Part shown: positions 16,872 through 63,297 of the stretch, piece by piece
How positions within the stretch are numbered: position 1 is the stretch's first letter
Layout: each line of letters begins with the position of its first letter
Source: Chlamydiota bacterium
Lineage (GTDB): Bacteria; Chlamydiota; Chlamydiia; Chlamydiales; SM23-39
Length of the DNA stretch: 64,000 bases
NCBI GenBank assembly: GCA_048498835.1
Contig: JBEHXF010000003.1
Location: 516 to 64,515 of the forward strand
Reading direction: 5' to 3'
The notes under the pieces: model-generated
Databases searched by the model: none
What the model was told of the DNA's origin: nothing
The model's input: only the letters and a program-made list of their open reading frames with translations
Program-made: the position numbers and the translations under genes

Positions 16872-17108
16872 GTGAGCGCCGGGCATAATAGAAAACGAAC
16901 TAAAGTTAGAATCGAATTCGGTCAAACCGTTCGTCGAATGAGATATGCTTTGGATCTCTCAATCGAAAAGCTAGCGGAAAAGGCAAAACTTCATCCAAAT
17001 TATTTAGGTTCAGTAGAAAGAGGCGAACGAAACATAAGCCTCGAAAACATCTTGATTTTAGCAAGGGCGTTGGGATGCTCGCCCAAAGATCTAATGCCTA
17101 ATCAATAA
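16872..17108 (+). CDS. XRE-family HTH transcriptional regulator (cI/Cro-like)
   Basis: LSIEKLAEKAKLHPNYLGSVERGERNISLENILILARALGCSPKDL is a classic HTH_3 pattern. Confidence 0.85.
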   Translation: MSAGHNRKRTKVRIEFGQTVRRMRYALDLSIEKLAEKAKLHPNYLGSVERGERNISLENILILARALGCSPKDLMPNQ

Positions 17109-17323
17109 TAATTTCACCAATATTAAAGCCCAACTCTTTTCAGACTAAATTCAATTTAGGCTCGTGCATTTAGACCAGCGTGTGTCAGATCACTTTTTCG
17201 ATATCTGCGAATCGGAGTTATCCCACCTTAGAAAACCTTTTTATATAATATCGAATAACTCTCCCCATCCCTAGTCCCTATACCCCCTACTTTTACCAAA
17301 TTTCTATTAATGACGAAGGAAGA

Positions 17324-18331: not shown

Positions 18332-18349
18332 TTCGATACCTGAGACATT

Positions 18350-18535
18350 TGCGACTTGCGACAGACGTTTAGTTTTTCATTGAGAAAAGTGTCTTCAGTA
18401 GAAATGCGACACCCCTGCGTCTGTCTGCGACAAAAAATCCAATGTCGCAGTGTTGTCACATGAGTGTCACAATTCTCATTTTATCAATTTGCTATAGTGT
18501 GGTTGCTTTGATTGTCGCATGTCGCAACTGTCACC
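18350..18535. repeat. Array of TGCGAC(A)/TGTC(G/A)CA heptamers (iteron-like)
   Basis: Forward copies at 18350, 18357, 18405, 18426. Inverted copies at 18443, 18454, 18465, 18513, 18520, 18529. Confidence 0.6.
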
Positions 18536-20094: not shown

Positions 20095-20312
20095 TAGTTC
20101 CCCCTCGCAATATTGGTTTCTTTGCTTTTTTCTAAATAAGAGAGAAAGGCCTCTTCATCTAGAAGAATAAGCCGACCTAACTTGCAGACAACCTGCTTTC
20201 TAAAACCTCTTCGGTCTTTAAAAAGTAAGTTTTTCAGCATGTTCTTAGTAAGAAAGGGGTATTTTTCGATCGCTTGCTTTTTTGTGAGGTAAGATTTTGA
20301 ACTACTCTCCAC
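20094..20312 (-). CDS. Excisionase/AlpA-like HTH protein
   Basis: 72 aa. YLTKKQAIEKYPFLTKNMLKNL....KLGRLILLDEEAFLSYLE. The stop overlaps the start of the downstream gene. Confidence 0.6.
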   Translation of the reverse strand: MESSSKSYLTKKQAIEKYPFLTKNMLKNLLFKDRRGFRKQVVCKLGRLILLDEEAFLSYLEKSKETNIARGN

Positions 20313-20436
20313 CAGTCCTCCTGGGTTAGATGGTTTACTGACTTCTCGTGCCGGAGAATTCCTTAAAAAACCAAAACGAACTCAAGATTAATCAGGATTG
20401 CAAAGCGCCAAAACGTCTTTGATTGGGGCAAAATTT

Positions 20437-21390
20437 TTAGGTATAAATACTACCATTAGTCAAGTAAGCCTCTTCAAGCCATTTTCTAGTAACCCACTGC
20501 ATGATTTGACAAAGGACAGGATGGAATGCGAATCTTTGTGTGAAAAGCTTAACAAACTTTGAGTGAATAATTTCATTCAAAGTCCACCCTAAAACCTTTA
20601 GAATTCTCGTTAAACTAGACAGGGCAAATCTAATAGCCAAAAAATTCACTCCTCTTTCAGAAAATATCTCAGGAATCTCTACAGGCTCTCCAAGAGGCAA
20701 GCCTTTTATCAGCCGATGATCGCGCTTCTTCCTTTTTTCGGGCAAAAGCGGGAAAACGGGCCTCACCCAGTTTTGGACATTACGAGTGTTCCTCCCTTGC
20801 AACTCTAAAAGATCAAAGAAAGGAGATCGTTTGCTCAACAACTCTTGCGTCAGATCGGCAATTGTTCTTACACTCTCCCCACGCAAATCGAACAAAACTT
20901 GAGCTGCACATTGTACTGCAATCACATGCTTTTGGGGCAAAGACAACCCTGAGCGATCTCTATGGAGGCCCACTCTCTCAAACACATCTTTCTCATATCC
21001 CTGAAGCGAGACATCCTGTTCTAAAGCAACCTTAAAAAAGCCAAACCAGTCTGATTGTTCATTTATAACTTTTTGTTTTGAGAAGCGCTTTTCACACAAC
21101 ACAAGAGAACGTACAAGAGACTCACTGCTTGTATCCTTTTTTAAGGTCTTTTTTCCCTCAATTTCATATGTTAAACCAAAAAAACTCTTCTCCAGTCCAT
21201 CTAAAACTTCAATCAATTGCTCCATAAACCCATCCGCAGGGTATAGACTTAGAAGCATCTCTGTTGGTGCTGATAAGGACAGTTCTGGGAAATGATTGGT
21301 CGATTTTTCTAATGCAGAAATTGCTTTAATATCTTCCTCGATTTGTTCTTTTAATTCAGACGATATAGCCAAATGCTTTAGATCACTCAT
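20437..21390 (-). CDS. Hypothetical protein (island-encoded)
   Basis: 317-aa ORF whose start overlaps the integrase stop by 8 nt. No motif recognised. Confidence 0.55.
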   Translation of the reverse strand: MSDLKHLAISSELKEQIEEDIKAISALEKSTNHFPELSLSAPTEMLLSLYPADGFMEQLIEVLDGLEKSFFGLTYEIEGKKTLKKDTSSESLVRSLVLCEKRFSKQKVINEQSDWFGFFKVALEQDVSLQGYEKDVFERVGLHRDRSGLSLPQKHVIAVQCAAQVLFDLRGESVRTIADLTQELLSKRSPFFDLLELQGRNTRNVQNWVRPVFPLLPEKRKKRDHRLIKGLPLGEPVEIPEIFSERGVNFLAIRFALSSLTRILKVLGWTLNEIIHSKFVKLFTQRFAFHPVLCQIMQWVTRKWLEEAYLTNGSIYT

Positions 21391-22438
21391 TCTGGACTCC
21401 TTGGAAGATTTGTTCTGACATTTTGGATACTGCGTCTACCGACCGTGATTCAATAAGATGAGCGTACCGCCGTGTCATCGAAACACTCCGATGCCCTAGC
21501 AGATGCCCGATTTCCCCTAAAGAAAGCCCCTGTGCCAGCATTTCGGTAGCGTATGAGTGGCGTGCATCATGTGGTCTAAAATCTATCAATCCAGCACGTT
21601 TAATGGCTGTTTTAAGGGCTCTTCGGAATTCGAGCGGAGAGCCGCTATTTTGGCCTGGGAAGATATAGCCAAGCGAGGTTGCTTGGGATGCGAGAGTCCT
21701 TAAGAGCTCCAGAGCCAGACCTCGGATAGGAACAGAGCGCATATCGGAGTTTTTTGACTTGGTGATGGTAATCTTCCCCTGTGTGAGCTCAACATCTATC
21801 CACTTGAGACAGCGAATTTCGTTATAACGGCAGCCTGTACTTAAGAGAAGTACAACGAAGGTGAAGAGATAGGGATTACTGCTCTCTCGGCAGGCATCAA
21901 GAAAGCGAGAGCGCTCAGTGGGGGTAAGGAAGCGAGTGCGTTCACGAGATTCTTTCTCTCTAGAGATCTTGCGAACAGGATTTTCTACGATCCACTCCCA
22001 TTGCTTAACACAGATGCTCAGGAGGTGACTGAGAGTGGCTAAGAAACGATTACATGTGCTACCTGTACGCACCTTGCCTTTTGAATTGCGTTCAGTGAGA
22101 AGTTTTTGTTTCTTCTCAGCGATAAGGGATGGCCGGACATCTTGGAGATAGAGATTGCCTAGCTCTGCCCGCCACCAGTTTAGGTGGCCTTGTTTGGCGG
22201 TAGTGACCTTCTGCTCTTTGCAATAACGCTCCACAGCATCTTGAAAGGTACGGCGGCGAGCTTCTGGGTAGAGCTGTTGACGACCGCAGCGGATATCGGC
22301 TTCTGTCTTCTGAATCCATGCCTTGGCATCGGTCTTACGGTCAAACATGGCAGTGAGTGTTGGATGGCCTTTGAGGCGAACTTCTGCTTGGTAGCGTGTG
22401 CCACCGTCTTTGAGGGATCTTTCTCTGATATGACCCAT
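21383..22438 (-). CDS. int: Tyrosine recombinase / phage-type integrase
   Basis: Start taken at MGHIRERSLKDGGTRYQAEVRLKG (typical integrase N-terminus). Catalytic region LLSTGCRYNE..HDARHSYATEML..LLGHRSVSMTRRYAHL (R..H.R..Y). The ORF-track extension to 22651 is unlikely. Confidence 0.9.
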   Translation of the reverse strand: MGHIRERSLKDGGTRYQAEVRLKGHPTLTAMFDRKTDAKAWIQKTEADIRCGRQQLYPEARRRTFQDAVERYCKEQKVTTAKQGHLNWWRAELGNLYLQDVRPSLIAEKKQKLLTERNSKGKVRTGSTCNRFLATLSHLLSICVKQWEWIVENPVRKISREKESRERTRFLTPTERSRFLDACRESSNPYLFTFVVLLLSTGCRYNEIRCLKWIDVELTQGKITITKSKNSDMRSVPIRGLALELLRTLASQATSLGYIFPGQNSGSPLEFRRALKTAIKRAGLIDFRPHDARHSYATEMLAQGLSLGEIGHLLGHRSVSMTRRYAHLIESRSVDAVSKMSEQIFQGVQNE

Positions 22439-22659
22439 TTCGACTTCCTTACAAGCGTGACGATAGATGGTCCTTGGATAAGACGATCTTCGCGCTTGAA
22501 TTTCAGTTAGTTGAAAAGGATGTTCACATGATTGCCGTAAAGATAACGGAACCGACATCCTGCTTGGGTAATTTAAGGATTTTCCGTACTCCGGCAAGAT
22601 TACGGCATTTGGAGTTTTGGGGCGGTTTTTTTGAACCATTTTTAACCCCATTTTCTATA

Positions 22660-22710
22660 GAGAAACTCCGGGTGTATGATTCGAACATACGACCAATGGA
22701 TTAACAGTCC
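22660..22710 (-). repeat. att repeat (right end of island) within tRNA-Asn
   Basis: Matches 13842-13892. Covers 6 nt 3' of the tRNA plus tRNA positions 28-72. Confidence 0.9.
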
Positions 22711-22737
22711 ACTGCTCTACCACTGAGCTAACCCGGA
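22666..22737 (-). tRNA. tRNA-Asn (anticodon GUU)
   Basis: The reverse complement folds as UCCGGGU-UA-GCUC-AGUGGUA-GAGC-A-GUGGA-CUGUUAA-UCCAU-UGGUC-GUAUG-UUCGAAU-CAUAC-ACCCGGA-G. 72 nt, CCA not encoded. Confidence 0.9.
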
Positions 22738-22834
22738 ATGAAAACGAAGGATCAGTGTAAAGTACCTAAGGATTAATTGCAAAGAGTTCGTTTCTAGCTT
22801 GGAGAAAATCGGGCTGTGAGGCTACTCTGGAGCC

Positions 22835-42698: not shown

Positions 42699-44507
42699 AT
42701 GGAAAGAGTCCTGGCAAAAGAACTGTCGCAGCACATTGGGAAACCGGTGCTGCTCCGCGGGTGGCTCAACAATACCCGCGCTTTTGGAAAACTCACCTTC
42801 CTCATTCTTCGCGACCGGAGCGGTTTTGCTCAGATCGTCATCGAGAATAGGGAAGAGTCGAAAAAACTAGAAGGTCTTCAGCCAGGCTCGATCTTGACTG
42901 TTCACGGCACAGCCGCCCTCTCACAAGAGGCTCATCTCGGCGCAGAAGTGGCAGATCCTAAAATCACCGTAGAAAATTCGATCCGCGAAGTTCCGCCGAT
43001 TGAGTACTACAAACCCGAGATCAACACCGATCTCGATTTCATTCTCGATCATCGCCCGATCGCTCTTCGTAATCGGCAAATTGCAGCCGTTTTTCGAATT
43101 CAGTCCGATATCGCCCATGCCTATCGGCTCTACATGCACGATCAGGTAAAAGCTTACGAGTATTTCGCCCCGAATATCATCGGCGCCTCTTCGGAAGGAG
43201 GAGCTGAGTTTTTCAATGTCGATTACTTTGGCCATACTGCGACCCTTGCGCAGAGCAGTCAGCTCTACAAGCAAATCATGGTTGGCGTCAATGAGCGGGT
43301 ATTTGCCCTCATGCCTTTTTTCCGAGCAGAACCATCCCACACTTCCCGCCACCTCTCAGAAGGGAAACAGTTCGAGTTCGAGATGGGATTTTTTAAACAC
43401 TGGCATGAAATCCTCGACATCCAAGAAGGATGCATTAAATTTATCGTCCAATACCTTCACCAGCATTGCAAAGCGGAAATCGAAACACTCGGCGGCCGAA
43501 TCATTTCAGCGCCAGCCAACGTCCCTTTCCCTCGCCTCACCTTTAAAGAAGCTCAGCAGCTCTATTTTGAGCGCACTGGAATCGACGAACGGCATGAACC
43601 TGACCTCAGTCCCGCCGCAGAGCGAGATCTCTGCGCCTGGGCCTCAGAAAAGCATGGAACCGATCTCGTCTTCGTCACCGACTGGAAAACGGTCAAGCGC
43701 CCCTTCTATTCTTACGCATCTGATACCAACCCGGATCTGACCAATACCTTTGACCTCATTTGCGCAGGCACGGAAATTACCTCAGGCGGCCAAAGGCGTC
43801 ACACCTATGAGTCGATGCTTGAAGGACTTCGCCTGAAAGAAATGGAACCGGCAAACTTCACCGACTACCTCAGCATTTTTAAATATGGCATGCCACCACA
43901 CGGTGGATTCGGTATGGGTCTGGAGCGACTCACCATGACACTCCTCAAGCTGAAAAATGTCCGCGAGGCGTCTCTTTTCCCCTCAGATACAAAGAGAATC
44001 GCCGGCAACAGGATCAAAGCGAATATCTTCTTCGGAGGCGAAAACATCCGCAATGAGATCATCCGTCAACTCAATCAACATAAATTCGCCTTCACGCATC
44101 TCAAGCATGAGGCGACTCCTACCTCGCAAGATTCGGCTCGCGTTCGCAATACCAAGATGGAAGAGGGTGTTAAGGCTCTCATCGTCCGTGGTAAGTCGAC
44201 CAAAAAGAACTACCAGTTCAATATCCCCTCTCACCTCAAGCTCGATATGAAAGCGGTGCAGGAAGCGGTTGGCGAAAAATGTGAATTCGAAGATCCTCTT
44301 GTCATTCAAGAGCGATTTGGCTTGCCTGTCGGTGGCGTTCCTCCGTTTGGCAATCTGATCAATCTCGACAACTACTTCGATGAGAAAATCTCACATGAAG
44401 AACGGGCTGTATTCAACTGCGGCCTTACGACTGAATCGATCTTAATGAACTCGAAAGATTTGATCCAACTCGCTGAACCAAAATTCGGTCCATTTAGTAA
44501 GACCTAA
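42699..44507 (+). CDS. Archaeal/eukaryote-type aspartyl(asparaginyl)-tRNA synthetase fused to C-terminal YbaK/ProX-like deacylase domain
   Basis: OB domain LLRGWLNNTRAFGKLTFLILRDRSG. SSQLYKQ. Motif 2 FRAEPSHTSRHLSE. GGQRRH. Motif 3 GMPPHGGFGMGLERL. From about residue 445: HEATPTSQDSA..GVKALIV....LDMKAV..AVG.K.EF......ERFGLPVGGVPPFG. Confidence 0.8.
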   Translation: MERVLAKELSQHIGKPVLLRGWLNNTRAFGKLTFLILRDRSGFAQIVIENREESKKLEGLQPGSILTVHGTAALSQEAHLGAEVADPKITVENSIREVPPIEYYKPEINTDLDFILDHRPIALRNRQIAAVFRIQSDIAHAYRLYMHDQVKAYEYFAPNIIGASSEGGAEFFNVDYFGHTATLAQSSQLYKQIMVGVNERVFALMPFFRAEPSHTSRHLSEGKQFEFEMGFFKHWHEILDIQEGCIKFIVQYLHQHCKAEIETLGGRIISAPANVPFPRLTFKEAQQLYFERTGIDERHEPDLSPAAERDLCAWASEKHGTDLVFVTDWKTVKRPFYSYASDTNPDLTNTFDLICAGTEITSGGQRRHTYESMLEGLRLKEMEPANFTDYLSIFKYGMPPHGGFGMGLERLTMTLLKLKNVREASLFPSDTKRIAGNRIKANIFFGGENIRNEIIRQLNQHKFAFTHLKHEATPTSQDSARVRNTKMEEGVKALIVRGKSTKKNYQFNIPSHLKLDMKAVQEAVGEKCEFEDPLVIQERFGLPVGGVPPFGNLINLDNYFDEKISHEERAVFNCGLTTESILMNSKDLIQLAEPKFGPFSKT

Positions 44508-44508
44508 T

Positions 44509-45651
44509 ATGAGTTCCCCCCTTATAATCGATATCGCTCACCCCCTGCCCACCTGGCATTTGGGGGCGAGCCAAACGGTTCGTCACAATAAGATCATTCA
44601 TTCCATCACCGCTTTTTTCCAGGATCTCATCTACAAATCCGATCCAAGAGAATCCTTTCAATCCTTCTACGATTCTCTGCAGCCTCGTTTTCAGATCATT
44701 CACAACAACCTAGCTCAGGGACAAGGGGATTTTGAAGAGATCAAGCGGCTGCTTAAAATCGTCGCTAACATTGAAACGAGCGCCTGGGGTTACGACCTGG
44801 GTTATAAAATTGGCAAAGCCGATCAATCGAGCGCCGATCCCCTCTTCCTGAAATTCCGCGGGCAAGTCAATGCGATCCAAGCTTTGGCCCAAAGACATCT
44901 TCAGCGTTTAGATCGATCCCATCCTGAAACTCATCAACTCGCTCGTTGGATTGAATCCAACGAAGAACAACAGCGCTACGCCGTCTACATCGGACACCAA
45001 GATGTCCCCTACCTCTACTCCGAAATTCCCGCCGGTTCGATCTTACTCGACAACCCCTCTTCTACTCTCTACAGCCATGTGGTCCGAGGCAACTACTATT
45101 CCTATCTCTATACCATCATCAAACTTGTGAAACGCATCCTTGCTTGGTTGTTCACTGGTATGACTTATACTCATGCAGAACTCGCTCTAAGCAATGGCCA
45201 GGTCTTCGACCTACTCAAAGATCGAGATCACTTTCTCGCAGGAAAAGGGCTCATCAAAGATATGGGCAGCCGAGTGTGCTATCGCGATGTTTTAACTCCC
45301 AATCAAGCGAAAATCCTCGCCGCCTACAATGAGAAAAATCCCCCGGTCGCAACCTATCAAGAAGCCTTTTCCATCCTAGAAAATGAAGTGAAATCAAACA
45401 TCGATAAAATCACAGCGTCGCCATGGGATATCGCCAAAACCTGCCTCCCCTTCCGCCGCCACAAAGATTACGACCTCGCCTCTGAATGGAATCCAGGCGT
45501 TGTCCGCCTCGGCTGCTCTCCATACGTTTCGGCTCTCTTCGGCCGCTTTGGTATCGACGTTGGCGCCAAACACAATAAGCTTCATCAATCGATCACTCCC
45601 GCCAATCTCGCTCAATCCGATTTTCACGAACCTTTATACGTGACAACCTAA
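44509..45651 (+). CDS. Hypothetical protein (possible permuted papain-like/YiiX-type C-terminal region)
   Basis: ATG lies 1 nt after the aspS-type stop. TYTHAELAL..GQVFD, then later RLGCSPYVSALF (His-then-Cys order). Confidence 0.55.
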   Translation: MSSPLIIDIAHPLPTWHLGASQTVRHNKIIHSITAFFQDLIYKSDPRESFQSFYDSLQPRFQIIHNNLAQGQGDFEEIKRLLKIVANIETSAWGYDLGYKIGKADQSSADPLFLKFRGQVNAIQALAQRHLQRLDRSHPETHQLARWIESNEEQQRYAVYIGHQDVPYLYSEIPAGSILLDNPSSTLYSHVVRGNYYSYLYTIIKLVKRILAWLFTGMTYTHAELALSNGQVFDLLKDRDHFLAGKGLIKDMGSRVCYRDVLTPNQAKILAAYNEKNPPVATYQEAFSILENEVKSNIDKITASPWDIAKTCLPFRRHKDYDLASEWNPGVVRLGCSPYVSALFGRFGIDVGAKHNKLHQSITPANLAQSDFHEPLYVTT

Positions 45652-46191
45652 AAAAGAATAACGTTTTCCCCAGCAGCCCATCCTACCCGAGGTACTATCT
45701 TTTCCTGTTGCTGAGTAAAGTCGAAAAGAGACAGCTACCGCAGTAGGAAGTTCTGAATCGGAGTCCTTAAAAAATTCCCCTAAAGATTCAAAGCCTTTTT
45801 TTATGGCTGCAGTTACTCTTTCGTTGAATCCCTTTCCATTTTCATTTGTTACACTTTCTTCGTAATCAGGCTTCATAAGCACTGTCGCACTCATATCGAT
45901 TCCAGAACGAAACTCTTCGGCTGTATAGTCGGTTCTTGCAATTAACCAAATTTTCACCTCAAACCGATAGGTCAAATCGCTTAATCTTGGCTCTAACGCC
46001 TTTTCGTACATATCCGCACATTCTAAATAATCGACTGTAAGCTTCTTTAAATTATCCACATATCTCTTGTAGATTTCATCGATTCCCTCTACAGAAGCTT
46101 TTTCCTCCTCTTGTTTGCTCTTTGCATACGCTTCCGCTACAAGAGAAAATCTTTGCTTATTGAGATCGATCATTGATATTGCGCTGGCCAT
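45634..46191 (-). CDS. Divergent fifth member of the ~157-aa paralogue array
   Basis: Start set at MASAISMIDL. LTYRFEVKIWLIARTDYTAEEF and LPTAVAVSFRLYSATG...GRMGCWGK align with the conserved blocks of the four upstream paralogues. Confidence 0.55.
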   Translation of the reverse strand: MASAISMIDLNKQRFSLVAEAYAKSKQEEEKASVEGIDEIYKRYVDNLKKLTVDYLECADMYEKALEPRLSDLTYRFEVKIWLIARTDYTAEEFRSGIDMSATVLMKPDYEESVTNENGKGFNERVTAAIKKGFESLGEFFKDSDSELPTAVAVSFRLYSATGKDSTSGRMGCWGKRYSFLGCHV

Positions 46192-46295
46192 ATGTCCTCG
46201 TATGCTAAAATTTATTTTAGCAATTGAAGATAGGGAATTGTAAAATATTGGTAAAGAAAAAGTGACAGGGAAAACCCCCGCCTTAGCGATAAACA

Positions 46296-46766
46296 TTAAA
46301 CCTGGCCTTGAAGTCTCCAAGCTCCAGCATAAAACGTTCCATAGGAAAGAGGACCTGCCTGCAAATCAATCACAAAGCGAGTCGGCAATAGTTCCTCCTG
46401 AAGACGGGCTCGAAGTAACTCGTCAGCCAGTTCTTTTATTAGAGATATTTGTTTACTTGGAGCTTGCGGGCGTACAGTAAAAGTTTCCAAAGCTTGTTGT
46501 TGCATGATCGCATGAACATCAATCCCATTTGTAATTTCTTCATCAGAAACTTGGCTCTCATGACTAACCCAAATCTTTGCCGTAAGCGATTGGGTAGGAT
46601 CACTCGTTTCAGGATTCAAATTTCGAATAGCAAGATCAAAAATTTTTCCTATATCTGACAGAACTTCTTCCTTTAAGCCTCCATTCCGATAAACCCTCAA
46701 ATTTACTCTAGCGTTGTTGATTATCCGCTGCCGTACTGGGTCAGCTCCTTCCAAAGCCCTTACCAT
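46296..46766 (-). CDS. Paralogue-array protein (unknown family)
   Basis: MVRALEG..YRNGGLKEEVL..SLTAKIWVSHE..LPTRFVIDLQAGPLSYGTFYAGAWR. Confidence 0.7.
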   Translation of the reverse strand: MVRALEGADPVRQRIINNARVNLRVYRNGGLKEEVLSDIGKIFDLAIRNLNPETSDPTQSLTAKIWVSHESQVSDEEITNGIDVHAIMQQQALETFTVRPQAPSKQISLIKELADELLRARLQEELLPTRFVIDLQAGPLSYGTFYAGAWRLQGQV

Positions 46767-46829
46767 AAAAACCTCAAGTTAGTGCTAAAAGTATCAGGAG
46801 AAAACCAATTAATTACAAGCGATGGAAGA

Positions 46830-47303
46830 TTAGATCTCGCCCCACTTACCCCAGGCGCTAGTGTAGTATCTGCCGTAGGAAAGAAGACCTGCTTTTAATT
46901 CGACTACAACGCGAATAGGTAAAGGTTGAAGTTGAAGGAGCGTTCGAAGTGCTGTTACAGTACGAGGCATTACATGCCTAATTTGCATTTCGCAGTTTTG
47001 AGGATCTACCGCAAACGTTTCTAAAGGACGCCCTTCTATTATTGAGCGAGGGTCAACTCTGTTTAAGATTTCATACTCCGTAACATCTTTTTCGTAATCT
47101 ACCCACACCGTGGCTGTCAGCGATAAATTCGGATTATGAGCTATGTAGTCCAATTCACTGATGGCATGTTCAAAAATTCCCTCCACAGAAGCTAAAAATT
47201 CTCGCTTTAACCCCCCATTCAAATAAGTGGCTAAATCGGATCTTGCCTCACGGACAAAACTCGCTTCTCGCTTCACATAGTCCGGGTCCACGGCCTTTAC
47301 CAT
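46830..47303 (-). CDS. Paralogue-array protein (unknown family)
   Basis: MVKAVDP..YLNGGLKREFL..NPNLSLTATVWVDYE..LPIRVVVELKAGLLSYGRYYTSAWGKWG. Confidence 0.7.
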   Translation of the reverse strand: MVKAVDPDYVKREASFVREARSDLATYLNGGLKREFLASVEGIFEHAISELDYIAHNPNLSLTATVWVDYEKDVTEYEILNRVDPRSIIEGRPLETFAVDPQNCEMQIRHVMPRTVTALRTLLQLQPLPIRVVVELKAGLLSYGRYYTSAWGKWGEI

Positions 47304-47366
47304 AAAAACCTCAAGTTAGGGCTAAAAGTATCAGGAAAACTCCGATTCATTACAAGCAATGGAAGA

Positions 47367-47840
47367 TCAGAGAGCGCCATACTTACCCCAGGCGCCAGCG
47401 TAGTATGTGCCATAAGATAGATTGTCTGCTTTTAATTCTACTATAACGCGAATTGGCAGACAGTTAGCTTTAAAAAGCTGTTCAAGTGCTCTTACAGCTA
47501 GAAGCTTTACATTCTTAATTTGCCCTACATAGTCTTGGGGACCTACCGTAAACGTTTTTAAAGGAGGTCTTTCTATTATGGAGCGCGGGTCGACTTTGTG
47601 TAAAATTTCATCTTCCGTAACATCTGTATCACAATCTACCCACATTGTGGCTGTCAGCGATAAATTCGGATTGTGCTGCCTGCAGAACAATTCAGCAAGG
47701 GCACAATCAAATATTTTTTCCACAGTGGCCAAAAATTCTGGTTCAAAGCCACCGCTCAAATAACTAACTACATTTAGTCTTGAGAGATTGAGAATGCTCT
47801 CTTCCGGAAGCTTATAGCCCAGGTTTACAGCCTTAACCAT
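47367..47840 (-). CDS. Paralogue-array protein (unknown family)
   Basis: MVKAVNL..YLSGGFEPEFL..NPNLSLTATMWVDCD..LPIRVIVELKADNLSYGTYYAGAWGKYG. Confidence 0.7.
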   Translation of the reverse strand: MVKAVNLGYKLPEESILNLSRLNVVSYLSGGFEPEFLATVEKIFDCALAELFCRQHNPNLSLTATMWVDCDTDVTEDEILHKVDPRSIIERPPLKTFTVGPQDYVGQIKNVKLLAVRALEQLFKANCLPIRVIVELKADNLSYGTYYAGAWGKYGAL

Positions 47841-47909
47841 AAAAACCTCAAGTTAGGGCTAAAAGCAGCAGGAAAACTCCGATGAATTAGAAGGAATAGG
47901 AGATCAGAT

Positions 47910-48401
47910 TCAGCCAAACGTTCCCCAAGCGCCAGCATAATAAGTTCCGTAAGATAGCTCATCTGCTTTAAACTCAACCAGGAAACGGACCGGCAATGGC
48001 TTTTCATGTAGGAGGGGGGTAACCAATTCTAAAATAGCGTTTTTCGTCATTTTTATCTGGTCTGCAGGACGTGTAGGCATTACTGTAATCGTACTTATGG
48101 GACAATCTCTCATCATCTTTTCAGCGTCAATTTGCTCTAAGATTTCCTCATCTGTGACTTCAGGTTCATAGCTCACCCAAACTTTTGCTGTCAGTGGCAA
48201 ACTAGGATTTGTTTGCTTAAACTGTAAATAATTGATAGCTCGATTAAATATTTGCGACACTAGGTCAAGCGTCTCTGCCTTAAAGCCTCCAGTTAAGTAA
48301 CTATTTAATCTTTTCCTGTGATGTTGAACCACACCCTGAGCTAGGGGATGTATCCCGGTCGATTGCATAGACATTCTCATAACATCCTTGGTTAAAGCCA
48401 A
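47910..48401 (-). CDS. Paralogue-array protein (unknown family)
   Basis: ..YLTGGFKAETL..NPSLPLTAKVWVSYE..LPVRFLVEFKADELSYGTYYAGAWGTFG. Confidence 0.7.
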   Translation of the reverse strand: MALTKDVMRMSMQSTGIHPLAQGVVQHHRKRLNSYLTGGFKAETLDLVSQIFNRAINYLQFKQTNPSLPLTAKVWVSYEPEVTDEEILEQIDAEKMMRDCPISTITVMPTRPADQIKMTKNAILELVTPLLHEKPLPVRFLVEFKADELSYGTYYAGAWGTFG

Positions 48402-48462
48402 AAAGTATCTATTGAAAGCAAAAAAAACGCAAGGGCAGGAAGAATTTCTGCCCTTAGAAGAT

Positions 48463-48846
48463 TTAAGATTTGATTTCGATTTTCATGGGACGGGCGGAGC
48501 GACTTTTTGGAAATTTCACTCGCAAAATCCCATCTTTGCAACTTGCTTCAGGCGAAGCTTGCTCATCGACGCGCGTTGGAATGCCAATGCGGTAAGCGTA
48601 GCGACGAGATGATTTGAGGTGATACTTCACATCGCTTTTCTCTTCATCCTCTTCCGCTTTTATGAGAAGAGATCCCTTTTCATAGGTGAGGTGGATCTTT
48701 TCTTTCTGAATGCCAGGAACTGGCACTTCCACAAAGACCGCTTCATCCGTTTCGCCGATTGAAACGCCTTCATTTTGATTGCAATCTTGGATGCAGCTTA
48801 AGCGATTGAAGAGTTCGTCTAGTTGGGTTGGTAGATACTTTTGCAT
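48463..48846 (-). CDS. Hsp20/alpha-crystallin family small heat-shock protein
   Basis: VEVPVPGIQKEKIHLTYEKGSLLIKAE.....RRYAYRIGIPTRVD...EASCKDGILRVKFPK. Confidence 0.8.
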   Translation of the reverse strand: MQKYLPTQLDELFNRLSCIQDCNQNEGVSIGETDEAVFVEVPVPGIQKEKIHLTYEKGSLLIKAEEDEEKSDVKYHLKSSRRYAYRIGIPTRVDEQASPEASCKDGILRVKFPKSRSARPMKIEIKS

Positions 48847-48932
48847 ACTTCCTCCAGTTGGTTACAACTGATTCAGATTGTATGCAAAAGTCGGATTTAT
48901 GTCTAGCACTCGACAGCGTCGAGTGCTAATTT

Positions 48933-51677
48933 CTAGGTTCCGAGACCAGGTTCTGGATTTTGCATCGGAGGTCGAATGTCCGTTGGCGAAATCTGAGGCG
49001 CTGGCGGAGGAGTCTTGCGCTGGAGCTCATCAGCCACTTTTACGCGACCTCTTTTCGCTTCCGTATCCCAAGTTCCCGCCATGATTTCTTTGATGTCAGT
49101 AGAATCGAGGGTTTCAAATTCCATCAACATATCAGCCATCAGTTGCACCTTATCTCGATTCTGCTCGAGAATCTCAATGGCGCGCTTGTGAGCTTCGTTG
49201 ATGAGCTTTTTGACTTGGGCATCGATTTCTTGAGCGGTTTTATCCGAGTAGTTCTTCTCGTGATAGTTTGACATGCCGAGATACTGACCCGATTCCGTGC
49301 GCTCATCGTAAGTCACCGTGCCGAGTTCATCGCTCATACCCCATTCGCAGACCATGCTGCGGGCGATTTTTGTCGCTTGTGAAATATCGTGCTGAGCTCC
49401 GGAAGAGAGATCTTCAACAAAGATTTCTTCAGCAGCTCGACCACCCATCAAGACAACGAGTTTATCGAGCACTTCTTTGCGCCAGTAGCTGAGGCGGTTT
49501 TTCGTCGGCATAAAGTGGGTCGCGCCGAGCGAGAATCCGCGTGGAATAATGGTCACCTTATCAACTGGATCGCTGTATTTCACGATGAGGCCAGCAATCG
49601 CATGACCCGACTCGTGATAAGCGGTGGTCTTTTTCTCATTCTCATCCATCTCAAGGCTACGTCGCTCTTTTCCATAGCGAACTTTATCAGCAGCTTCTTT
49701 CACTTCAATCGAAGTGACAGCCGAGCGGCCGTTTCGGGCAGCGAGAAGGGCCGCTTCATTGAGGATGTTTTCAAGGTCAGCACCCGACGCGCCTGGCGTT
49801 ACACGTGCGATGTCATTGAGATCAACCGATGCGTCGATTTTAATGCGTCGCGCATGAACCTTTAAGATTTCGAGTCGACCTTTAATATCAGGCAGATCAA
49901 GGGTGACGCGGCGATCGAATCGACCGGGTCTTAAGAGCGCACGGTCGAGAATGTCAGGGCGGTTCGTCGCGGCCATTAAAATGACCCCTTCTTTCGTATC
50001 GAAACCATCCATTTCGACGAGCAACTGGTTCAACGTCTGTTCCCGCTCATCATGTCCGCCGCCGATGCCAGCGCCACGATGGCGACCGACCGCATCGATC
50101 TCGTCCATGAAAATGATGCAAGGAGCGTTTTTCTTAGCAGTATCGAACATATCGCGAATACGACTTGCTCCCACACCGACAAACATCTCGACGAAATCAG
50201 AGCCAGAGATACTGAAGAAAGGACGATCCGCCTCCCCCGCTACCGCTTTCGCAATCAGAGTTTTACCGGTACCTGGCGGCCCTACGAGGAGCACCCCTTT
50301 TGGAATGCGAGCGCCGAGCGCTGTGAATTTTTGCGGATCTTTTAAAAAGTCGACGATTTCTTCCAATTCTTCTTTCGCCTCTTCCGCACCAGCCACATCT
50401 TTAAAGGTGAAGCGGTTTTGCTCTTTTGTCATGAGCTTAGCGGGCGATTTGCCGAAGTTCATGGCCGAGGAGCCAACTCCTTTCATTTGTCGCGAAAAGA
50501 TAAAGTAGAGAAACAAAATCACCATCAAGACTGGCAAGACAGTGAGGAGATAACTAAAGTAGTTCGGAGAGGGCTCTTGGCTTTTAAAGGTCCGCTCCAA
50601 TACGGCGTTGCGCGGCTGATCTGGAGCGCGGTAGACAAGGCCTTTATTGGCTTCAAAGCTGCCCCATTCTTGTTTCGCTTGGGCAAACCAATAGCCATAG
50701 ACTTCTGGGTCTTGCTTTTCGAGCGCGCGAGTTGATAGCTCTTGGTTATTGAAGAACCAGATGACGTTGGCCACTTTTTGGCGCGATTTATCCAAAAGAG
50801 CGTCGTTCTTTTCTAGCTCGACGGTCACTTGACTGTATTGCTGCAACTGCTCAACATAACTTCTAACGCTGCGAAGCTGAGCGAGACGAACACCATCTTG
50901 CTCACGGCCCAAATCGCCGATCAGGGTCGCCACCTGATTCAGACTATTGCGGTAAGTATTGAGTTGCTGGTCGACAGATAGGTCTGCTGCTTGTTGCAAT
51001 TGACTATCTAATGTTTTCAACTCTTGCTTAATCGATTCCGTACCGATTCCAAGAGCAGGCGAGCGGAGAAGCGCAACGAGATTTCTAACTTCATTGCCAG
51101 CTTCTTCAACAGCTTCAACGGAGCGAGAAGATTGAGCCATGCTCACAGCGCGCTGAACCGCAGGCAGACTGATCACTTCGCGATCGGACAGAGAGCGGAT
51201 CACAACCGAGCTTTCTCGATCGGGGGTATCATAGAGCGTCCCAACAACAGTATACCCATTGCGCGGCAGAGTTTGTCCGCTCAAATGCAAATAGAGATCA
51301 GATGAATCTTGCACGTTCTTTTGGAGCGTCGCTAAATCGACATTCATACGCGCTTGATCAGCGACCAAGACGTGGTGTTGATTGAGCAGCTCGAGATAGC
51401 GGTAGCGGTCGCTGCTCTCTTCAGTGATCCGATCGCGGAATTTTCCGCTAAATGTGACGAGATTCTCGTTTTGAGCGATCTTACGATTCTCTTCTGGAAC
51501 GATCAGATTGAGATTGGTCAAATGCTCAGCTTGGTGAGAAAAAGAGACCTTTCCTGCCTGTTCTGACGTGAAGGTCTGGATGCCCAGAATAATCAGGATA
51601 GCGCCCACGAGGAAGAGGAGAAATCCTCCGGGAAACCCTTTTTTTGGTTCCTGCTTTGGTCTCTTGTCATTTAGCAT
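48933..51677 (-). CDS. ftsH: ATP-dependent zinc metalloprotease FtsH (long N-terminal domain)
   Basis: [32 protein letters not shown]. 914 aa. Confidence 0.95.
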
Positions 51678-55272: not shown

Positions 55273-56094
55273 ATGTCAATTAACGCGCTTATAAATAGAT
55301 TAGCTGGTTGGTGCCCTTTTTCCACAGAACCTACCATTCTTCATGATGGCTCAAAAATGGAAGGAAATTTCCAACAAGGAACTGGTGAAGGAACTAGAAC
55401 TTTTAGAGATGGAGAAATCTGGAGTGGCCGTTTTGCTAACTGGGAGCTAGAAGGACAAGGATTCATTATACAAGCAGATGGAAGTGTTTTAGATGGAATT
55501 TTTGCAAATTCTATGCTCACCAGAGGAAAAATCACTTGCACGAATGGAATGATTTTAGAAGGAGAGTTTCTGGAAAATATTTTACATGGAAGAGGAAAGA
55601 TAACGTTCCTCAATGGAACTATTCACGAAGGAAACTTTAACCAGGGAATATTAACTGGAGCCGGGAAAATCACCGAGCCTCATTTTGGAATTCAAGAAGG
55701 CGAATTCTCCGAGAATCTATTGAGACTACAGGGAAAAATGACGGTGCAACAGACTGGAAGAGTCTATGAAGGATGTCTCGTTGATTATAAATTACAAGGT
55801 TGGGGGAAAATAACCGATCGGGATGGAGATATCCGAGAAGGATTTTTTATAGATTCTCATCTAACTAGGGGGAAAATTACTCTAGCAAATCGAACTATTT
55901 ATGAAGGAGAGTTTCTACAAGATACTCTGAATGGATTTGGTAAAATCAAATATCCTGATGGGAGCCTTTACGAAGGAACCTTTATACATGGAAATTTAAA
56001 TGGCTGGGGAAAAATCACTTTTGCCGATGGCACGATTAATGAAGGCAATTTTATTGAGGGTGTACTCCAAAAAAAAGCTACCAAGAGCGGATAA
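55273..56094 (+). CDS. MORN-repeat protein
   Basis: About nine units of (Y/L/I/H)EG.F..(N/G/D).L.G.GKIT..(D/N)G. Confidence 0.85.
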   Translation: MSINALINRLAGWCPFSTEPTILHDGSKMEGNFQQGTGEGTRTFRDGEIWSGRFANWELEGQGFIIQADGSVLDGIFANSMLTRGKITCTNGMILEGEFLENILHGRGKITFLNGTIHEGNFNQGILTGAGKITEPHFGIQEGEFSENLLRLQGKMTVQQTGRVYEGCLVDYKLQGWGKITDRDGDIREGFFIDSHLTRGKITLANRTIYEGEFLQDTLNGFGKIKYPDGSLYEGTFIHGNLNGWGKITFADGTINEGNFIEGVLQKKATKSG

Positions 56095-56203: not shown

Positions 56204-57133
56204 ATGTCTTCACCGATAGCAAATCAAACCCTATATTCAAATCAGTATGGATATTATTCTAACGATGATACTTCATCTGAACATTCAGAAGTTGAGTTAG
56301 AAACAAATGGTGTCTCAACATTCGAAGGCAATCTTGCAGACGGAATAGGAATGGGTATTCGCAAATTTTGCGATGGAACGGTCTGGGCCGGTCTATTTTC
56401 TGGATACTATTTAGAAGGACACGGAAGAATTCAGCTTCCCGATGAAACTGAATATCATGGAAACTTTCATGAATCCAAACTCTGTGGGCAAGGGAAAATC
56501 ATCTTTCCAAACGGAGATATCATGGAAGGGACCTTCAAAAACAACTTACTTCATGGTCAGGGAATATATAAGCAAAAAAGTGGAGCGGTTTATGAAGGTC
56601 AATTTAAATTTGGCCTTTTACATGGTCAGGGGAAAATGATCATTCCCGGAATAGGAGTAGCCCGAGGAGAATTTAAAGAGAATGAATTGCATGGCAACGG
56701 AACCTTTACCCTCCCAAATAGAACGATCATATCCGGTTTTTTTAGAAAATCTCAGCTCTTTGGACAAGGTCAAATTCACTATCCAGACGGACAATACAAA
56801 CAGGGTAATTTTATGAACAATTTGCTCGAGGGCTACGGAGAAATCGGGAATCAAAAAGGAGATAAATTTTGTGGCTACTTTATGCGAGATCGACTGAATT
56901 ACGGAAAAGTTACATTCTGTGATGGAGTCATATGGGAAGGCATCTTTCGTGAAGGCAAGCTCTATGGTGAAGGTAAAATGTTTTATCCGGCTGGCTTGAA
57001 ATACGACAAAGCGGCCACTTTCGAAGGTTATTTTATCGACGGTCTTTTAAGTGGACAGGGCAAAATTATCGTTGGCAATCAGATACAATCAGAAGGGTGT
57101 TTTTTGATGGGAAAGTTGCTTTTTGAAATTTAA
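56204..57133 (+). CDS. MORN-repeat protein
   Basis: Repeated (Y/M)EG.F...LHGQGK...P.G units. Confidence 0.85.
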   Translation: MSSPIANQTLYSNQYGYYSNDDTSSEHSEVELETNGVSTFEGNLADGIGMGIRKFCDGTVWAGLFSGYYLEGHGRIQLPDETEYHGNFHESKLCGQGKIIFPNGDIMEGTFKNNLLHGQGIYKQKSGAVYEGQFKFGLLHGQGKMIIPGIGVARGEFKENELHGNGTFTLPNRTIISGFFRKSQLFGQGQIHYPDGQYKQGNFMNNLLEGYGEIGNQKGDKFCGYFMRDRLNYGKVTFCDGVIWEGIFREGKLYGEGKMFYPAGLKYDKAATFEGYFIDGLLSGQGKIIVGNQIQSEGCFLMGKLLFEI

Positions 57134-62457: not shown

Positions 62458-63297
62458 ATGACTCACTGGATGGACTTGCCTCTACGTTCGATCGGACGGC
62501 TCGCTTGGAGCCGCTCTATCCTGACGCCTCACCCAAGAGCCGTTCAAACCCGCAACGCCATCAGTTTCGCCGCTTTTATCCAGTCCCTAAAAGATCGCCT
62601 CTCTGAAACCATCGCCCGCCCTGTCCCATTAGATACCTCCCGGCCTCGCCTCACTCCGCCAAAACCACCCCGCATAGGCTCCTTCCAGCCGCCCCGCTAC
62701 TTCTTTAAAGGGCCTATTGAATCCGATCGAAAGAAAAACCCAGAACCGATCCGTTATCTCCTCACTGAATCCCTCGAGCTGCCTACTGCCCGTCCCGTCC
62801 CCAATAATTCACTCCTACTCCGGAGCTTATGCCGGGGCAAAGGGCGCCTTTGTCAAAATCAGGAAGGATTGATCTATCTCGATGTCGACAATAAGTTTAT
62901 CTCTGCGATGATGCCCTACCTTCGCCTGCAAGGATTAATCCAGCCCCCTTATGCCAATTACTTCGGCCCCTCTGTTGGCGCCCATATCCCTGTCATTCCC
63001 AAAAGAGAAGCAGACTTTCATTATCTCTCCTCGGTCAAAGAGATCGGCCGTGAATTTTCCTTCGAAATCGAAGGACTCTATTCACTCCAACCCGACAGCT
63101 GGCCGCAGGTTGAAGAAGTTTGGTTTTTTAAAATTCGCTCACCGGAACTCGAAATCCTACGTCAACGACACCAGCTCATCGCCCGTCCCCTAGGCCACAG
63201 CTTCCACATCACCGTTGCTGTCCAACCCCGCAACGCAAAAGATAAGCCCCGCCCCTCGCCTCTCATGCGCATCAACCCCGCCTTCCTCGCCGCTTAG
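62458..63297 (+). CDS. Hypothetical protein (weak 2H-phosphoesterase-like HxT pattern)
   Basis: Pro-rich N-terminal half. GAHIPVIP and SFHITVAV lie about 80 aa apart. Confidence 0.5.
   Translation: MTHWMDLPLRSIGRLAWSRSILTPHPRAVQTRNAISFAAFIQSLKDRLSETIARPVPLDTSRPRLTPPKPPRIGSFQPPRYFFKGPIESDRKKNPEPIRYLLTESLELPTARPVPNNSLLLRSLCRGKGRLCQNQEGLIYLDVDNKFISAMMPYLRLQGLIQPPYANYFGPSVGAHIPVIPKREADFHYLSSVKEIGREFSFEIEGLYSLQPDSWPQVEEVWFFKIRSPELEILRQRHQLIARPLGHSFHITVAVQPRNAKDKPRPSPLMRINPAFLAA

What the first reader, a model, noticed from the sequence alone, without database searches (positions are those of the whole stretch)
45634..48401. Head-to-tail array of five paralogous ~157-aa proteins of unknown family downstream of hsp20-ftsH
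Four clear copies (46296-46766, 46830-47303, 47367-47840, 47910-48401) recur with a 534-543-bp period. Their spacers are also conserved (cataaaaacctcaagttag.gctaaaag...caggaaaac...). They share the blocks Y(L/R).GG(L/F)(K/E).E.L, NP.L(S/P)LTA(T/K).WV...E..VT(D/E)(Y/E)EIL and LP(I/V/T)R(V/F).(V/I)(E/D)(L/F)(K/Q)A..LSYG(T/R)(Y/F)Y(A/T)(G/S)AW. A fifth, divergent copy (45634-46191) keeps the same block order. None has a signal peptide, a TM segment or a motif I recognise. All are co-oriented with, and immediately downstream of, a small heat-shock protein gene and ftsH. The size and the absence of secretion signals would fit chaperone-like or adaptor proteins (type III chaperones are of similar size) or an effector family. 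This looks like a lineage-specific expanded system and deserves structural annotation.
Basis: seen in the sequence. Interest (0 to 1): 0.65.

Follow-up and report, generated by a model that had tools for sequence, protein, structure and literature searches.

The report
Genome-unique tandem family of small proteins
An environmental chlamydial genome carries four (possibly five) tandem copies of a small soluble protein with no detectable relative or matching solved or viral fold; they lie in a variable accessory-gene slot and are not part of the neighbouring heat-shock genes.

Summary
Four co-oriented minus-strand genes of 156-157 aa (38-55% identical) repeat every 534-543 bp. Their 63-69-nt spacers are 75-89% identical, although four-fold degenerate sites are saturated. 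The fifth ORF is only a probable degenerate relative (18-22% identity; 3 of 5000 shuffles score as well). Copy 4 most likely starts at ATG 48380, not TTG 48401.

The family has no relative outside this contig in about 15 billion proteins, GTDB genomes, metagenomes, viral contigs, plasmids or phages. Pfam, NCBIfam, PHROGs, PADLOC and PDB sequences give no match. A confident AlphaFold model (pLDDT 84, pTM 0.78) has no Foldseek match in PDB or BFVD.

The link to hsp20-ftsH is positional only. hsp20 has its own CIRCE operator, promoter-like site and terminator hairpin. Thirteen related genomes keep ftsH and aspS around a slot of 0.1-4.8 kb with different, low-GC contents and never this array. Array GC3 is 0.31-0.41 against 0.53-0.56 in the flanking genes.

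Best reading: a lineage-restricted accessory family under purifying selection, evolving by birth and death, most plausibly host-directed. That function is inferred, not shown. The type III chaperone and stress-adaptor readings are not supported.

The parts
47910..48380 (-). Copy c4, 156 aa. The start is revised from TTG 48401 to ATG 48380.
   Evidence: ORF. Profile match from the MSMQS region. Upstream region aligns with the internal spacers and places the ATG at 48380.
47367..47840 (-). Copy c3, 157 aa.
   Evidence: It is 55% identical to c2, with dN/dS 0.59.
46830..47303 (-). Copy c2, 157 aa. This is the protein modelled with AlphaFold.
   Evidence: Model pLDDT 84.2, pTM 0.78.
46296..46766 (-). 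Copy c1, 156 aa, the last clear copy.
45634..46191 (-). c5, an intact 185-aa ORF. It is a probable degenerate or distant paralogue, and its 3' end overlaps the convergent p380 gene by 18 bp.
   Evidence: No homologue elsewhere. GC3 0.357.
47841..47909 (-). Conserved spacer between c4 and c3 (69 nt), with GAGG followed by 5 nt and the ATG.
47304..47366 (-). Conserved spacer between c3 and c2 (63 nt).
   Evidence: The RNA is not more structured than shuffles.
46767..46829 (-). Conserved spacer between c2 and c1 (63 nt).
48381..48462 (-). Spacer between hsp20 and c4. It is 51-60% identical to the internal spacers in the unit alignment and shares the stretch GATACTTTT..TAAC..AGG..TTATG with them.
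48420..48455 (-). Terminator-like hairpin (AAGGGCAG / CTGCCCTT, 9-nt loop), then GCG and T8, directly after the hsp20 stop. The scanner missed it because its loop limit is 8.
   Evidence: Sequence read. The hairpin is in the MFE and centroid folds of the 102-nt segment 48371-48472, whose energy has z = -1.62.
46254..46282 (-). Terminator-like hairpin and T-rich tail after c1, separating the four clear copies from c5.
48463..48846 (-). hsp20 (small heat-shock protein). This is context, not part of the family.
   Evidence: PF00011 at E 1.1e-13.
48903..48929 (.). CIRCE-type inverted repeat (the HrcA operator consensus, 1 mismatch) upstream of hsp20. It partly overlaps the promoter-like site at 48905-48877.
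   Evidence: The equivalent element lies upstream of hsp20 in L004 and L005.
48933..51677 (-). ftsH (914 aa). Context only.
   Evidence: It is 75-82% identical to the FtsH of the closest MAGs, L001-L021.
44509..45651 (+). p380, a 380-aa protein of a rare chlamydial family, convergent with c5. Context only.
   Evidence: Three homologues at 32-35% identity, in other gene contexts without the array. Invariant THAEL and CS motifs.

Best explanation
This is a genome-restricted, tandemly amplified family of small (about 17.5 kDa), mildly acidic, soluble single-domain alpha/beta proteins. There are four intact paralogues plus one probable degenerate relative.

The array sits in an accessory-gene hot spot between the self-contained, CIRCE-controlled hsp20 unit and aspS. 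That slot is conserved in position but variable in content across the clade.

The genes code for protein and are under purifying selection. The family looks like the product of birth-and-death evolution by unequal recombination between repeat units. Each unit carries a strongly constrained 63-69-nt spacer that gives every copy the same Shine-Dalgarno context and upstream element.

Inferred function (not shown): a small pool of diversified host-directed binding or effector-like proteins. This is the usual role of lineage-specific tandem expansions in environmental Chlamydiota. It is not a component of the Hsp20/FtsH proteostasis machinery.

My confidence by level is about 0.9 that the genes are real and belong to a family with no detectable relatives. 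It is about 0.8 that they are functionally independent of hsp20-ftsH. It is about 0.35-0.4 that they are host-directed. The single confidence figure given for this explanation (0.45) is for the statement as a whole.
For: The genes are real and coding. Four full-length paralogues are 38-55% identical. dN/dS is 0.26-0.37 for the old pairs and 0.59 for c2/c3. Lengths are conserved, and each internal start has GAGG-N5-ATG. The AlphaFold model is confident from only four sequences (pLDDT 84.2, pTM 0.78).

The family is unique. Only the window's own proteins were found in 5.8 billion clusters and in an exhaustive HMMER scan of 1.84 billion representatives. The only other hit in that scan is a 3664-aa Rib-like repeat and SLH surface protein, whose 56 bits are summed over 25 short stretches, so I judge it spurious. 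There are no relatives in GTDB genomes, metagenomes or viral contigs, and none in plasmids or phages. Pfam, NCBIfam, PHROGs, PADLOC and PDB sequences give no match.

The fold is unmatched. The best Foldseek hit is E 0.08 with TM 0.36 or less in PDB, and E 0.035 in BFVD.

The site is a hot spot. Thirteen relatives keep ftsH and aspS around a slot of 0.1-4.8 kb with different contents. None of the 80 loci encodes the array, c5 or p380. The slot has 4-9 points lower GC than its flanks in 10 of the 12 relatives measured.

The composition is atypical. Array GC3 is 0.31-0.41 against 0.53-0.56 in ftsH, pnp and aspS. Other low-GC stretches of the window encode F-box and MORN-repeat proteins.

There is precedent. 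Tandem, species-specific expansions in Parachlamydiaceae carry type III secretion signals (PMC4209131). Conserved intergenic homology blocks drive gain and loss of tandem paralogues such as esaG (PMC9484751).

The array is independent of hsp20. hsp20 has a CIRCE element, a promoter-like site and a terminator hairpin. CIRCE is also found upstream of hsp20 in relatives that lack the array.
Against: There is no expression, secretion or interaction evidence, and no public sequencing run holds the locus. The proteins carry no eukaryote-like domain, unlike the characterised chlamydial expansions. No validated type III secretion predictor was available. The predicted first helix starts at residue 7, which leaves only a short flexible N-terminus. 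Read-through from hsp20 cannot be excluded. 'No fold match' covers PDB and BFVD only, because the AlphaFold DB and ESM Atlas were not available. Family uniqueness could partly reflect poor sampling of this lineage; the closest genome shares only 82% FtsH identity.

Confidence: 0.45

Rival explanations
1. This is an immunity-type (anti-toxin) array. The paralogues would be diversified cytosolic inhibitors, each neutralising a variant of a toxin or effector. It would resemble esaG/tipC strings or orphan poly-immunity loci.
For: The proteins are small, acidic, soluble single-domain proteins. They form tandem non-identical paralogues with conserved-length, highly similar intergenic regions, exactly the pattern described for esaG (one search compared). 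They are lineage-restricted and low in GC. Polymorphic toxin and Imm domains are recorded in chlamydiae (PMC3482391). The neighbour p380 has an invariant His...Cys-Ser pair that could be catalytic.
Against: No toxin gene precedes the array; the upstream gene is hsp20. No Pfam Imm or toxin family matches any copy or p380. Homologues of p380 occur elsewhere without such arrays. p380 has native-like GC3, unlike the array. An obligate intracellular lifestyle lowers the prior for interbacterial antagonism.
Confidence: 0.15
2. This is a stress module. The proteins would be co-chaperones or FtsH adaptors, co-transcribed with hsp20 and ftsH and induced by heat.
For: The genes are co-oriented with and immediately downstream of ftsH and hsp20. 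hsp20 carries a CIRCE operator, so read-through would make the array heat-inducible. The hsp20-c4 spacer is partly homologous to the internal spacers.
Against: A strong hairpin with a T8 run follows the hsp20 stop directly. The sister genome L004 also ends hsp20 with a hairpin terminator and has no array. Ten relatives keep ftsH and hsp20 without any family member. GC3 is far below that of ftsH. There is no similarity to any chaperone or adaptor family by sequence or fold.
Confidence: 0.08
3. These are class I type III secretion chaperones, each for a different effector.
For: The size (156-157 aa) and cytosolic nature fit, and pI is 5.4-6.1. Chlamydiota use type III secretion.
Against: The predicted topology is alpha-alpha-beta-(alpha)-beta-alpha-beta-beta-beta, not the CesT/SycE-type alpha-beta3-alpha-beta2-alpha that I recall for this class. 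No characterised secretion chaperone is among the top 50 listed hits of either library; the nearest, a moumouvirus protein named 'putative secretion chaperone-like', has TM 0.27 and E 0.19. There is no Pfam chaperone match. There is no adjacent effector or T3SS gene among the ORFs scanned.
Confidence: 0.04
4. These are decaying or non-functional remnants of a horizontally acquired cassette, or spurious ORFs.
For: The family is unique to one contig. Composition is atypical. c5 looks degenerate. The c2/c3 pair has a relaxed dN/dS of 0.59.
Against: All four reading frames are intact and of conserved length despite saturated synonymous divergence (dS 1.8-2.2). dN/dS is well below 1. There are 38 invariant residues. 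Ribosome-binding sites and spacers are conserved. The structure prediction is confident.
Confidence: 0.07

Closest known systems
Lineage-specific tandem gene-family expansions of Parachlamydiaceae (the NEX and PEX families; Domman et al. 2014, PMC4209131)
   Same: The host phylum is the same. Both are species-specific tandem arrays of paralogues at 30% identity or more, evolving by birth and death under overall purifying selection. They sit alongside F-box-type genes, and the window has one at 1280-2791.
   Different: Those families carry eukaryote-like domains (F-box, BTB, LRR), have tens to more than a hundred members, and have experimentally shown type III signals. This family has 4-5 members, no recognisable domain, no relatives in any other genome, and no secretion evidence.
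Tandem T7SS immunity gene strings (esaG and tipC; Garrett et al. 2022, PMC9484751)
   Same: Both are strings of non-identical small cytosolic paralogues. Their intergenic regions are of near-constant length and high similarity, forming a homology block with the gene's 3' end (one search compared).
   Different: No toxin gene or secretion locus is adjacent. There is no sequence or fold similarity: the EsaD-EsaG complex entry 8guo_A has TM 0.20 and E 0.55. Here synonymous sites next to the spacers are saturated, so recent recombination alone does not explain the spacer identity.
Class I type III secretion chaperones (CesT/SycE-like)
   Same: Similar size, acidic to neutral pI, and no secretion signal or TM segment.
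   Different: The predicted topology differs, and there is no significant Foldseek or Pfam match.

Membership tests
Any curated protein family (Pfam-A, NCBIfam, PHROGs, PADLOC, PDB sequences) | A profile or sequence match at or above the curated threshold | tested here: not met
   The best Pfam hits have E of 0.098 or higher and lie far below the cut-offs. NCBIfam gives none, PHROGs and PADLOC only noise, and the profile search of PDB sequences gives 0 hits at E up to 10.
Class I type III secretion chaperones | CesT/SycE-type alpha-beta-beta-beta-alpha-beta-beta-alpha fold (the topology is recalled from memory) | tested here: not met
   Model elements are H7-28, H33-53, E62-70, h76-81, h85-89, E95-99, H104-125, E130-138, E141-149 and E152-156. 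No characterised secretion chaperone is among the top 50 listed Foldseek hits of PDB or BFVD; one viral entry named 'putative secretion chaperone-like' has TM 0.27 and E 0.19. The best TM is 0.36.
Class I type III secretion chaperones | Small acidic protein (pI about 4-5) encoded next to its effector or T3SS genes | tested here: not met
   pI is 5.4-6.1. The neighbours are hsp20, c5 and p380. No T3SS or effector family was found among the window ORFs scanned.
Polymorphic-toxin or T7SS-type immunity arrays | Tandem non-identical paralogues with conserved intergenic homology blocks | tested here: met
   Proteins are 38-55% identical. Spacers of 63-69 nt are 75-89% identical. The pattern is as described in PMC9484751.
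Polymorphic-toxin or T7SS-type immunity arrays | Array lies immediately downstream of a toxin gene with a C-terminal toxin domain, or matches a known Imm family | tested here: not met
   The upstream gene is hsp20 (PF00011). No Imm or Tox Pfam family matched at E up to 1. No toxin domain was found in the window ORFs scanned.
Chlamydial expanded effector families (NEX/PEX type) | Eukaryote-like interaction domain (F-box, BTB, LRR and similar) | tested here: not met
   No Pfam domain was found in any copy.
Chlamydial expanded effector families (NEX/PEX type) | Species-specific tandem duplication with paralogues at 30% identity or more over 60% of the length or more | tested here: met
   The criterion is quoted from PMC4209131.
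Chlamydial expanded effector families (NEX/PEX type) | Functional N-terminal type III secretion signal | not testable with these tools
   This needs a reporter assay, such as a fusion of the first 20 codons to Cya in Shigella (method in PMC4209131).
hsp20-ftsH stress operon component | Conserved co-occurrence with hsp20 and ftsH across related genomes | tested here: not met
   Eighty loci carry ftsH and ten of them carry hsp20. None has a family member by tblastn or by hmmsearch with filters off.
hsp20-ftsH stress operon component | Co-transcription with hsp20 | tested here: inconclusive
   A terminator-like hairpin and T8 run lie between hsp20 and c4. CIRCE and a promoter-like site are confined to the region upstream of hsp20. 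No RNA run is available.
Small heat-shock protein (Hsp20/alpha-crystallin), for the neighbour at 48463-48846 only | Alpha-crystallin domain profile match | tested here: met
   PF00011 at E 1.1e-13, 51.6 bits against a cut-off of 20.8.

The most novel reading that the evidence does not exclude
The four proteins represent a previously unseen protein fold and family that arose, or was captured from an unsampled donor, and expanded in a single chlamydial lineage. Each copy would be served by a selectively maintained non-coding spacer element (a shared promoter, translation or processing signal). The family would act as a new class of host-directed effector or of inhibitor (immunity-like) proteins.
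Probability: 0.3. Interest if true: 0.6.

Novelty: new variant of a known kind. Interest (0 to 1): 0.42.

Why it matters
Environmental Chlamydiota adapt to protist hosts largely through lineage-specific accessory genes, most of which have unknown function. This array is a clean example. It is a compact family that can be modelled confidently, has no detectable relatives, and sits at a defined hot spot between conserved housekeeping genes.

If the fold is really new, or the proteins prove to be secreted or inhibitory, the array would add a new effector or immunity class. It would also offer a tractable case of how new gene families are born and amplified in obligate intracellular bacteria.

The spacers are conserved far beyond synonymous sites. 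They are a separate small puzzle about regulatory constraint, or targeted homogenisation, within tandem arrays.

The result also corrects a tempting guilt-by-association inference: the array is not part of the heat-shock/FtsH unit.

Tried and rejected
- **Protein homology searches.** The word-indexed search and the exhaustive HMMER search found only the window's own proteins. The one foreign hit, P0005, is a 3664-aa repeat protein whose 56 bits are summed over 25 short stretches matching profile positions 59-90. I rejected it as a repeat artefact.
- **Back-translated pattern scans.** GTDB genomes, metagenomes and viral contigs gave no relatives.
- **Spacer DNA motif scan of metagenomes.** There was one hit, L087, which is an unrelated repetitive contig and a chance match.
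- **tblastn against plasmids and phages.** No match.
- **Family and structure-sequence libraries.** Pfam, NCBIfam, PHROGs, PADLOC and PDB sequences gave nothing.
- **Foldseek.** PDB and BFVD gave only insignificant partial hits to kinesin, MHC and CheC.
- **c5.** It has no homologues. Its AlphaFold model, built with the family as alignment, had low confidence, so c5 membership stays unresolved.
- **Spacers as structured RNA.** Their folding energy is no better than shuffles, and there is no Rfam match.
- **p380 as partner or toxin.** Its homologues lie in other contexts without arrays. The profile search of PDB was negative. It is unrelated to the ORF in the slot of the sister genome.
- **Sequencing runs.** None holds the locus (look-up of encoding contigs also returned nothing), so no expression test was possible.
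- **CIRCE half-site in spacer S21.** I judged this to be chance, because the full-element search finds only the hsp20 site.

Full report
**1. The observation**

ORF listing shows four co-oriented minus-strand ORFs at 46296-46766 (c1), 46830-47303 (c2), 47367-47840 (c3) and 47910-48401 (c4).

The four clear copies align over their full length at 38-55% identity, with 38 invariant columns. Each matches the family profile end to end at about 253-261 bits.

Aligning the upstream regions shows that the hsp20-c4 spacer is homologous to the internal spacers. This places the c4 start at ATG 48380 (MRMSMQS..., 156 aa), so all four proteins are 156-157 aa. Repeat-finding tools saw only fragments because the nucleotide identity of the coding parts is low.

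c5 is 18-22% identical to the others. The evidence for its membership is as follows:
- hhalign gives P = 0.0023 over 38 columns.
- It is the best non-family ORF of the window against the profile.
- Only 3 of 5000 shuffles of c5 reach its profile score.
- Its AlphaFold model has low confidence (pLDDT 53.6) but the same order of helices and strands, apart from a missing C-terminal hairpin.
- Its GC3 matches the array.

I regard c5 as a probable degenerate paralogue, with a probability of about 0.6-0.7.

**2. These are real genes**

Pairwise Nei-Gojobori estimates give dS 1.8-2.2 (saturated) and dN 0.55-0.66 for the old pairs, a ratio of 0.26-0.37. For the youngest pair, c2/c3, dS is 0.51 and dN/dS is 0.59.

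Reading frames, lengths and a GAGG-N5-ATG start context are all preserved. The proteins have pI 5.4-6.1 and no hydrophobic segment.

AlphaFold2, using only the four paralogues as alignment, gives a confident model (mean pLDDT 84.2, pTM 0.78). The model has an N-terminal helical hairpin (residues 7-28 and 33-53). This is followed by beta (62-70), two short helices, beta (95-99), a long helix (104-125) and a three-stranded C-terminal meander (130-156).

**3. The spacers**

The three internal spacers (63, 63 and 69 nt) are 75-89% identical. The last 30 nt or so before each ATG are 90-97% identical.

Four-fold degenerate sites at identical amino acids are only 30-45% identical between the same genes, and 61% for c2/c3. 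Even inside the conserved C-terminal LSYGTYYAGAWG block, third positions differ freely.

The spacers are therefore conserved far beyond neutral expectation. Recent gene conversion spanning the gene ends does not explain this.

The spacers are not stably folded RNA, match no Rfam family and occur nowhere else in the window.

They contain the Shine-Dalgarno sequence and a GATACT motif about 26 nt upstream of the ATG. That motif, together with TTGTAA 17 nt further upstream, makes an 8-of-12 sigma-70-like match by my own count from the sequence. This is below the scanner's threshold, so it is inference only.

The same phenomenon, intergenic regions of constant length and high similarity between diverged tandem paralogues, is described for esaG immunity genes. 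There it mediates unequal recombination (PMC9484751).

**4. Family assignment**

None could be made.
- Pfam, NCBIfam, PHROGs and PADLOC give nothing near threshold.
- A profile search of all PDB sequences gives no hit at E up to 10.
- Foldseek of the confident model gives a best E of 0.08 with TM 0.36 or less in PDB (partial matches to kinesin motor domains, MHC and CheC) and a best E of 0.035 in BFVD.
- No characterised type III chaperone, immunity protein or stress adaptor stands out.

**5. Distribution**

The profile finds only the window's own four proteins among 5.8 billion clusters. An exhaustive HMMER scan of 1.84 billion representatives also finds only them.

The single foreign hit in that scan is a 3664-aa protein with Rib-like repeats and SLH-type C-terminal repeats. 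Its 56 bits are summed over 25 short repeats, so I reject it as an artefact.

Scans of GTDB species genomes, JGI metagenomes, viral contigs, plasmids and phages find no relative. A scan for the spacer motif found one chance match. c5 likewise has no homologue.

**6. Genomic context**

I used the lineage-specific N-terminal part of FtsH to fetch 80 loci from environmental Chlamydiota MAGs. The best are 70-75% identical in that part and 75-82% over the whole FtsH.

The order tilS, ftsH, (hsp20), slot, then aspS, pnp and rpsO on the opposite strand is conserved in the window's clade. The slot between ftsH or hsp20 and aspS ranges from about 0.1 to 4.8 kb and holds different ORFs in each genome.

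None of the 80 loci encodes anything related to the array, c5 or p380, by tblastn or by hmmsearch and phmmer with filters off.

The closest relative is L004 (FtsH 82%, Hsp20 65%, AspRS 83%). Its slot holds a single unrelated 335-aa ORF.

In 10 of the 12 relatives measured, the slot is 4-9 GC points below its flanks. In the window, the array plus c5 is 41% GC against 50% in the flanks, and array GC3 is 0.31-0.41 against 0.53-0.56 in the flanking genes.

Other low-GC stretches of the window encode an F-box protein and two MORN-repeat proteins. The slot is therefore an accessory-gene hot spot, and the array belongs to the accessory compartment of the genome.

**7. Relation to hsp20 and ftsH**

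hsp20 (PF00011) is preceded by a CIRCE-type inverted repeat with one mismatch to TTAGCACTC-N9-GAGTGCTAA. This is the only such element in the window. It partly overlaps a promoter-like site, TAGACA-17-TACAAT.

hsp20 is followed directly by an 8-bp GC-rich hairpin and a T8 run (sequence, fold).

That CIRCE is the HrcA operator of heat-shock genes is established knowledge, which I cite from memory.

The same element lies between ftsH and hsp20 in L004 and L005. L004's hsp20 also ends in a hairpin terminator.

hsp20 is thus a conserved, self-contained heat-shock unit, and the array begins after its terminator. A second terminator-like site follows c1.

Co-orientation with hsp20-ftsH is therefore positional. 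Read-through cannot be excluded, because no RNA data exist.

**8. The neighbour p380**

The neighbour p380 (44509-45651, plus strand, convergent with c5 and overlapping it by 18 bp) has native-like GC3. It has three homologues at 32-35% identity in chlamydia-like metagenome contigs, none of them next to such an array.

It has invariant THAEL and CS motifs. This suggests, from memory only, a permuted papain-like hydrolase.

**9. Interpretation**

Shown:
- a real, selected, genome-unique tandem family with a confidently predicted alpha/beta fold that has no match in PDB or BFVD;
- constrained spacers;
- a location in a variable accessory slot;
- no conserved association with hsp20 or ftsH.

Inferred:
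- birth-and-death evolution by unequal recombination at the spacer and 3'-end homology blocks, by analogy;
- a host-directed role, by analogy with the lineage-specific tandem expansions of Parachlamydiaceae, which carry type III signals, and from the company of F-box and MORN genes.

The main rival is an immunity-like array. It shares the architecture but lacks a toxin gene and any Imm or Tox match. The stress-adaptor and type III chaperone readings are disfavoured by the tests above. Decay is disfavoured by the intact frames and dN/dS below 1.

**10. Verdict**

The finding is real and was correctly flagged as an unknown, lineage-specific family. Its association with heat-shock genes is incidental.

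It is a new protein family within a known kind of phenomenon. It is of moderate interest because the fold may be new, the spacer conservation is unexplained, and the function is open. The interest is limited because gene families without relatives are common in environmental chlamydial genomes and no experimental handle is available yet.

Noticed in passing
window 48903-48929: A CIRCE-type inverted repeat (the HrcA operator consensus, 1 mismatch) lies between ftsH and hsp20 and partly overlaps a promoter-like site. It is the only one in the window. The equivalent elements are in L004 at 12778-12804 and in L005 at 12724-12750. hsp20 therefore appears to be a conserved HrcA-regulated single-gene unit in this clade.
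   Followed up: partly
window 11000-22738: A low-GC block (0.31-0.39 over 11-17 kb) ends at tRNA-Asn (22665-22738, minus strand). It contains a tyrosine integrase (21383-22651), a DUF3987 protein (18484-20094), a primase zinc-ribbon protein (17324-18331) and RtcB (12010-13197). This is probably an integrated mobile element.
   Followed up: no
window 3075-6743 and 6872-10819: Two adjacent large paralogous proteins (1222 and 1315 aa) each carry 6-7 Big_7 Ig-like repeats and a C-terminal malectin domain. The first also has a papain-family C1 peptidase domain.
   Followed up: no
window 1280-2791; 55273-56094; 56204-57133: Genes with eukaryote-like domains lie in low-GC stretches: one F-box protein and two tandem MORN-repeat proteins. 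These are typical effector candidates of environmental chlamydiae.
   Followed up: no
window 44509-45651 (+): p380 belongs to a rare family, with only three homologues in the protein database, all in other gene contexts. It has invariant THAEL (His222) and Cys336-Ser337 motifs. A permuted papain-like hydrolase is a lead from memory only, and Pfam and the PDB profile search are negative. Its 3' end overlaps c5 by 18 bp in convergent orientation.
   Followed up: partly
window 42699-44507 (+): This class II Asp/Asn/Lys-type aminoacyl-tRNA synthetase is fused to a C-terminal YbaK-type aminoacyl-tRNA editing domain. The full-length fusion is present at 67-83% identity in 13 related MAG loci.
   Followed up: no
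L003, L005, L010, L012, L018, L020, L021, L079 (slot next to aspS): A small membrane protein of about 110-128 aa, with a motif of the form ...GI.LI.IGA.MLLFS.YIA.QV..G, recurs next to aspS or in the slot of many relatives. It has no detectable counterpart in the window (best tblastn E 0.26).
   Followed up: partly
window 46767-46829, 47304-47366, 47841-47909: The array spacers are 75-89% identical, while four-fold degenerate sites of the flanking genes are saturated at 30-45% identity. The constraint is unexplained. It could be a promoter or translation signal in every unit, or homogenisation targeted at the spacers.
   Followed up: partly
window 62458-63297 (+): This 279-aa protein has a 2H phosphoesterase 'Swiss Army Knife' domain (PF22547, E 3.2e-08).
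   Followed up: no
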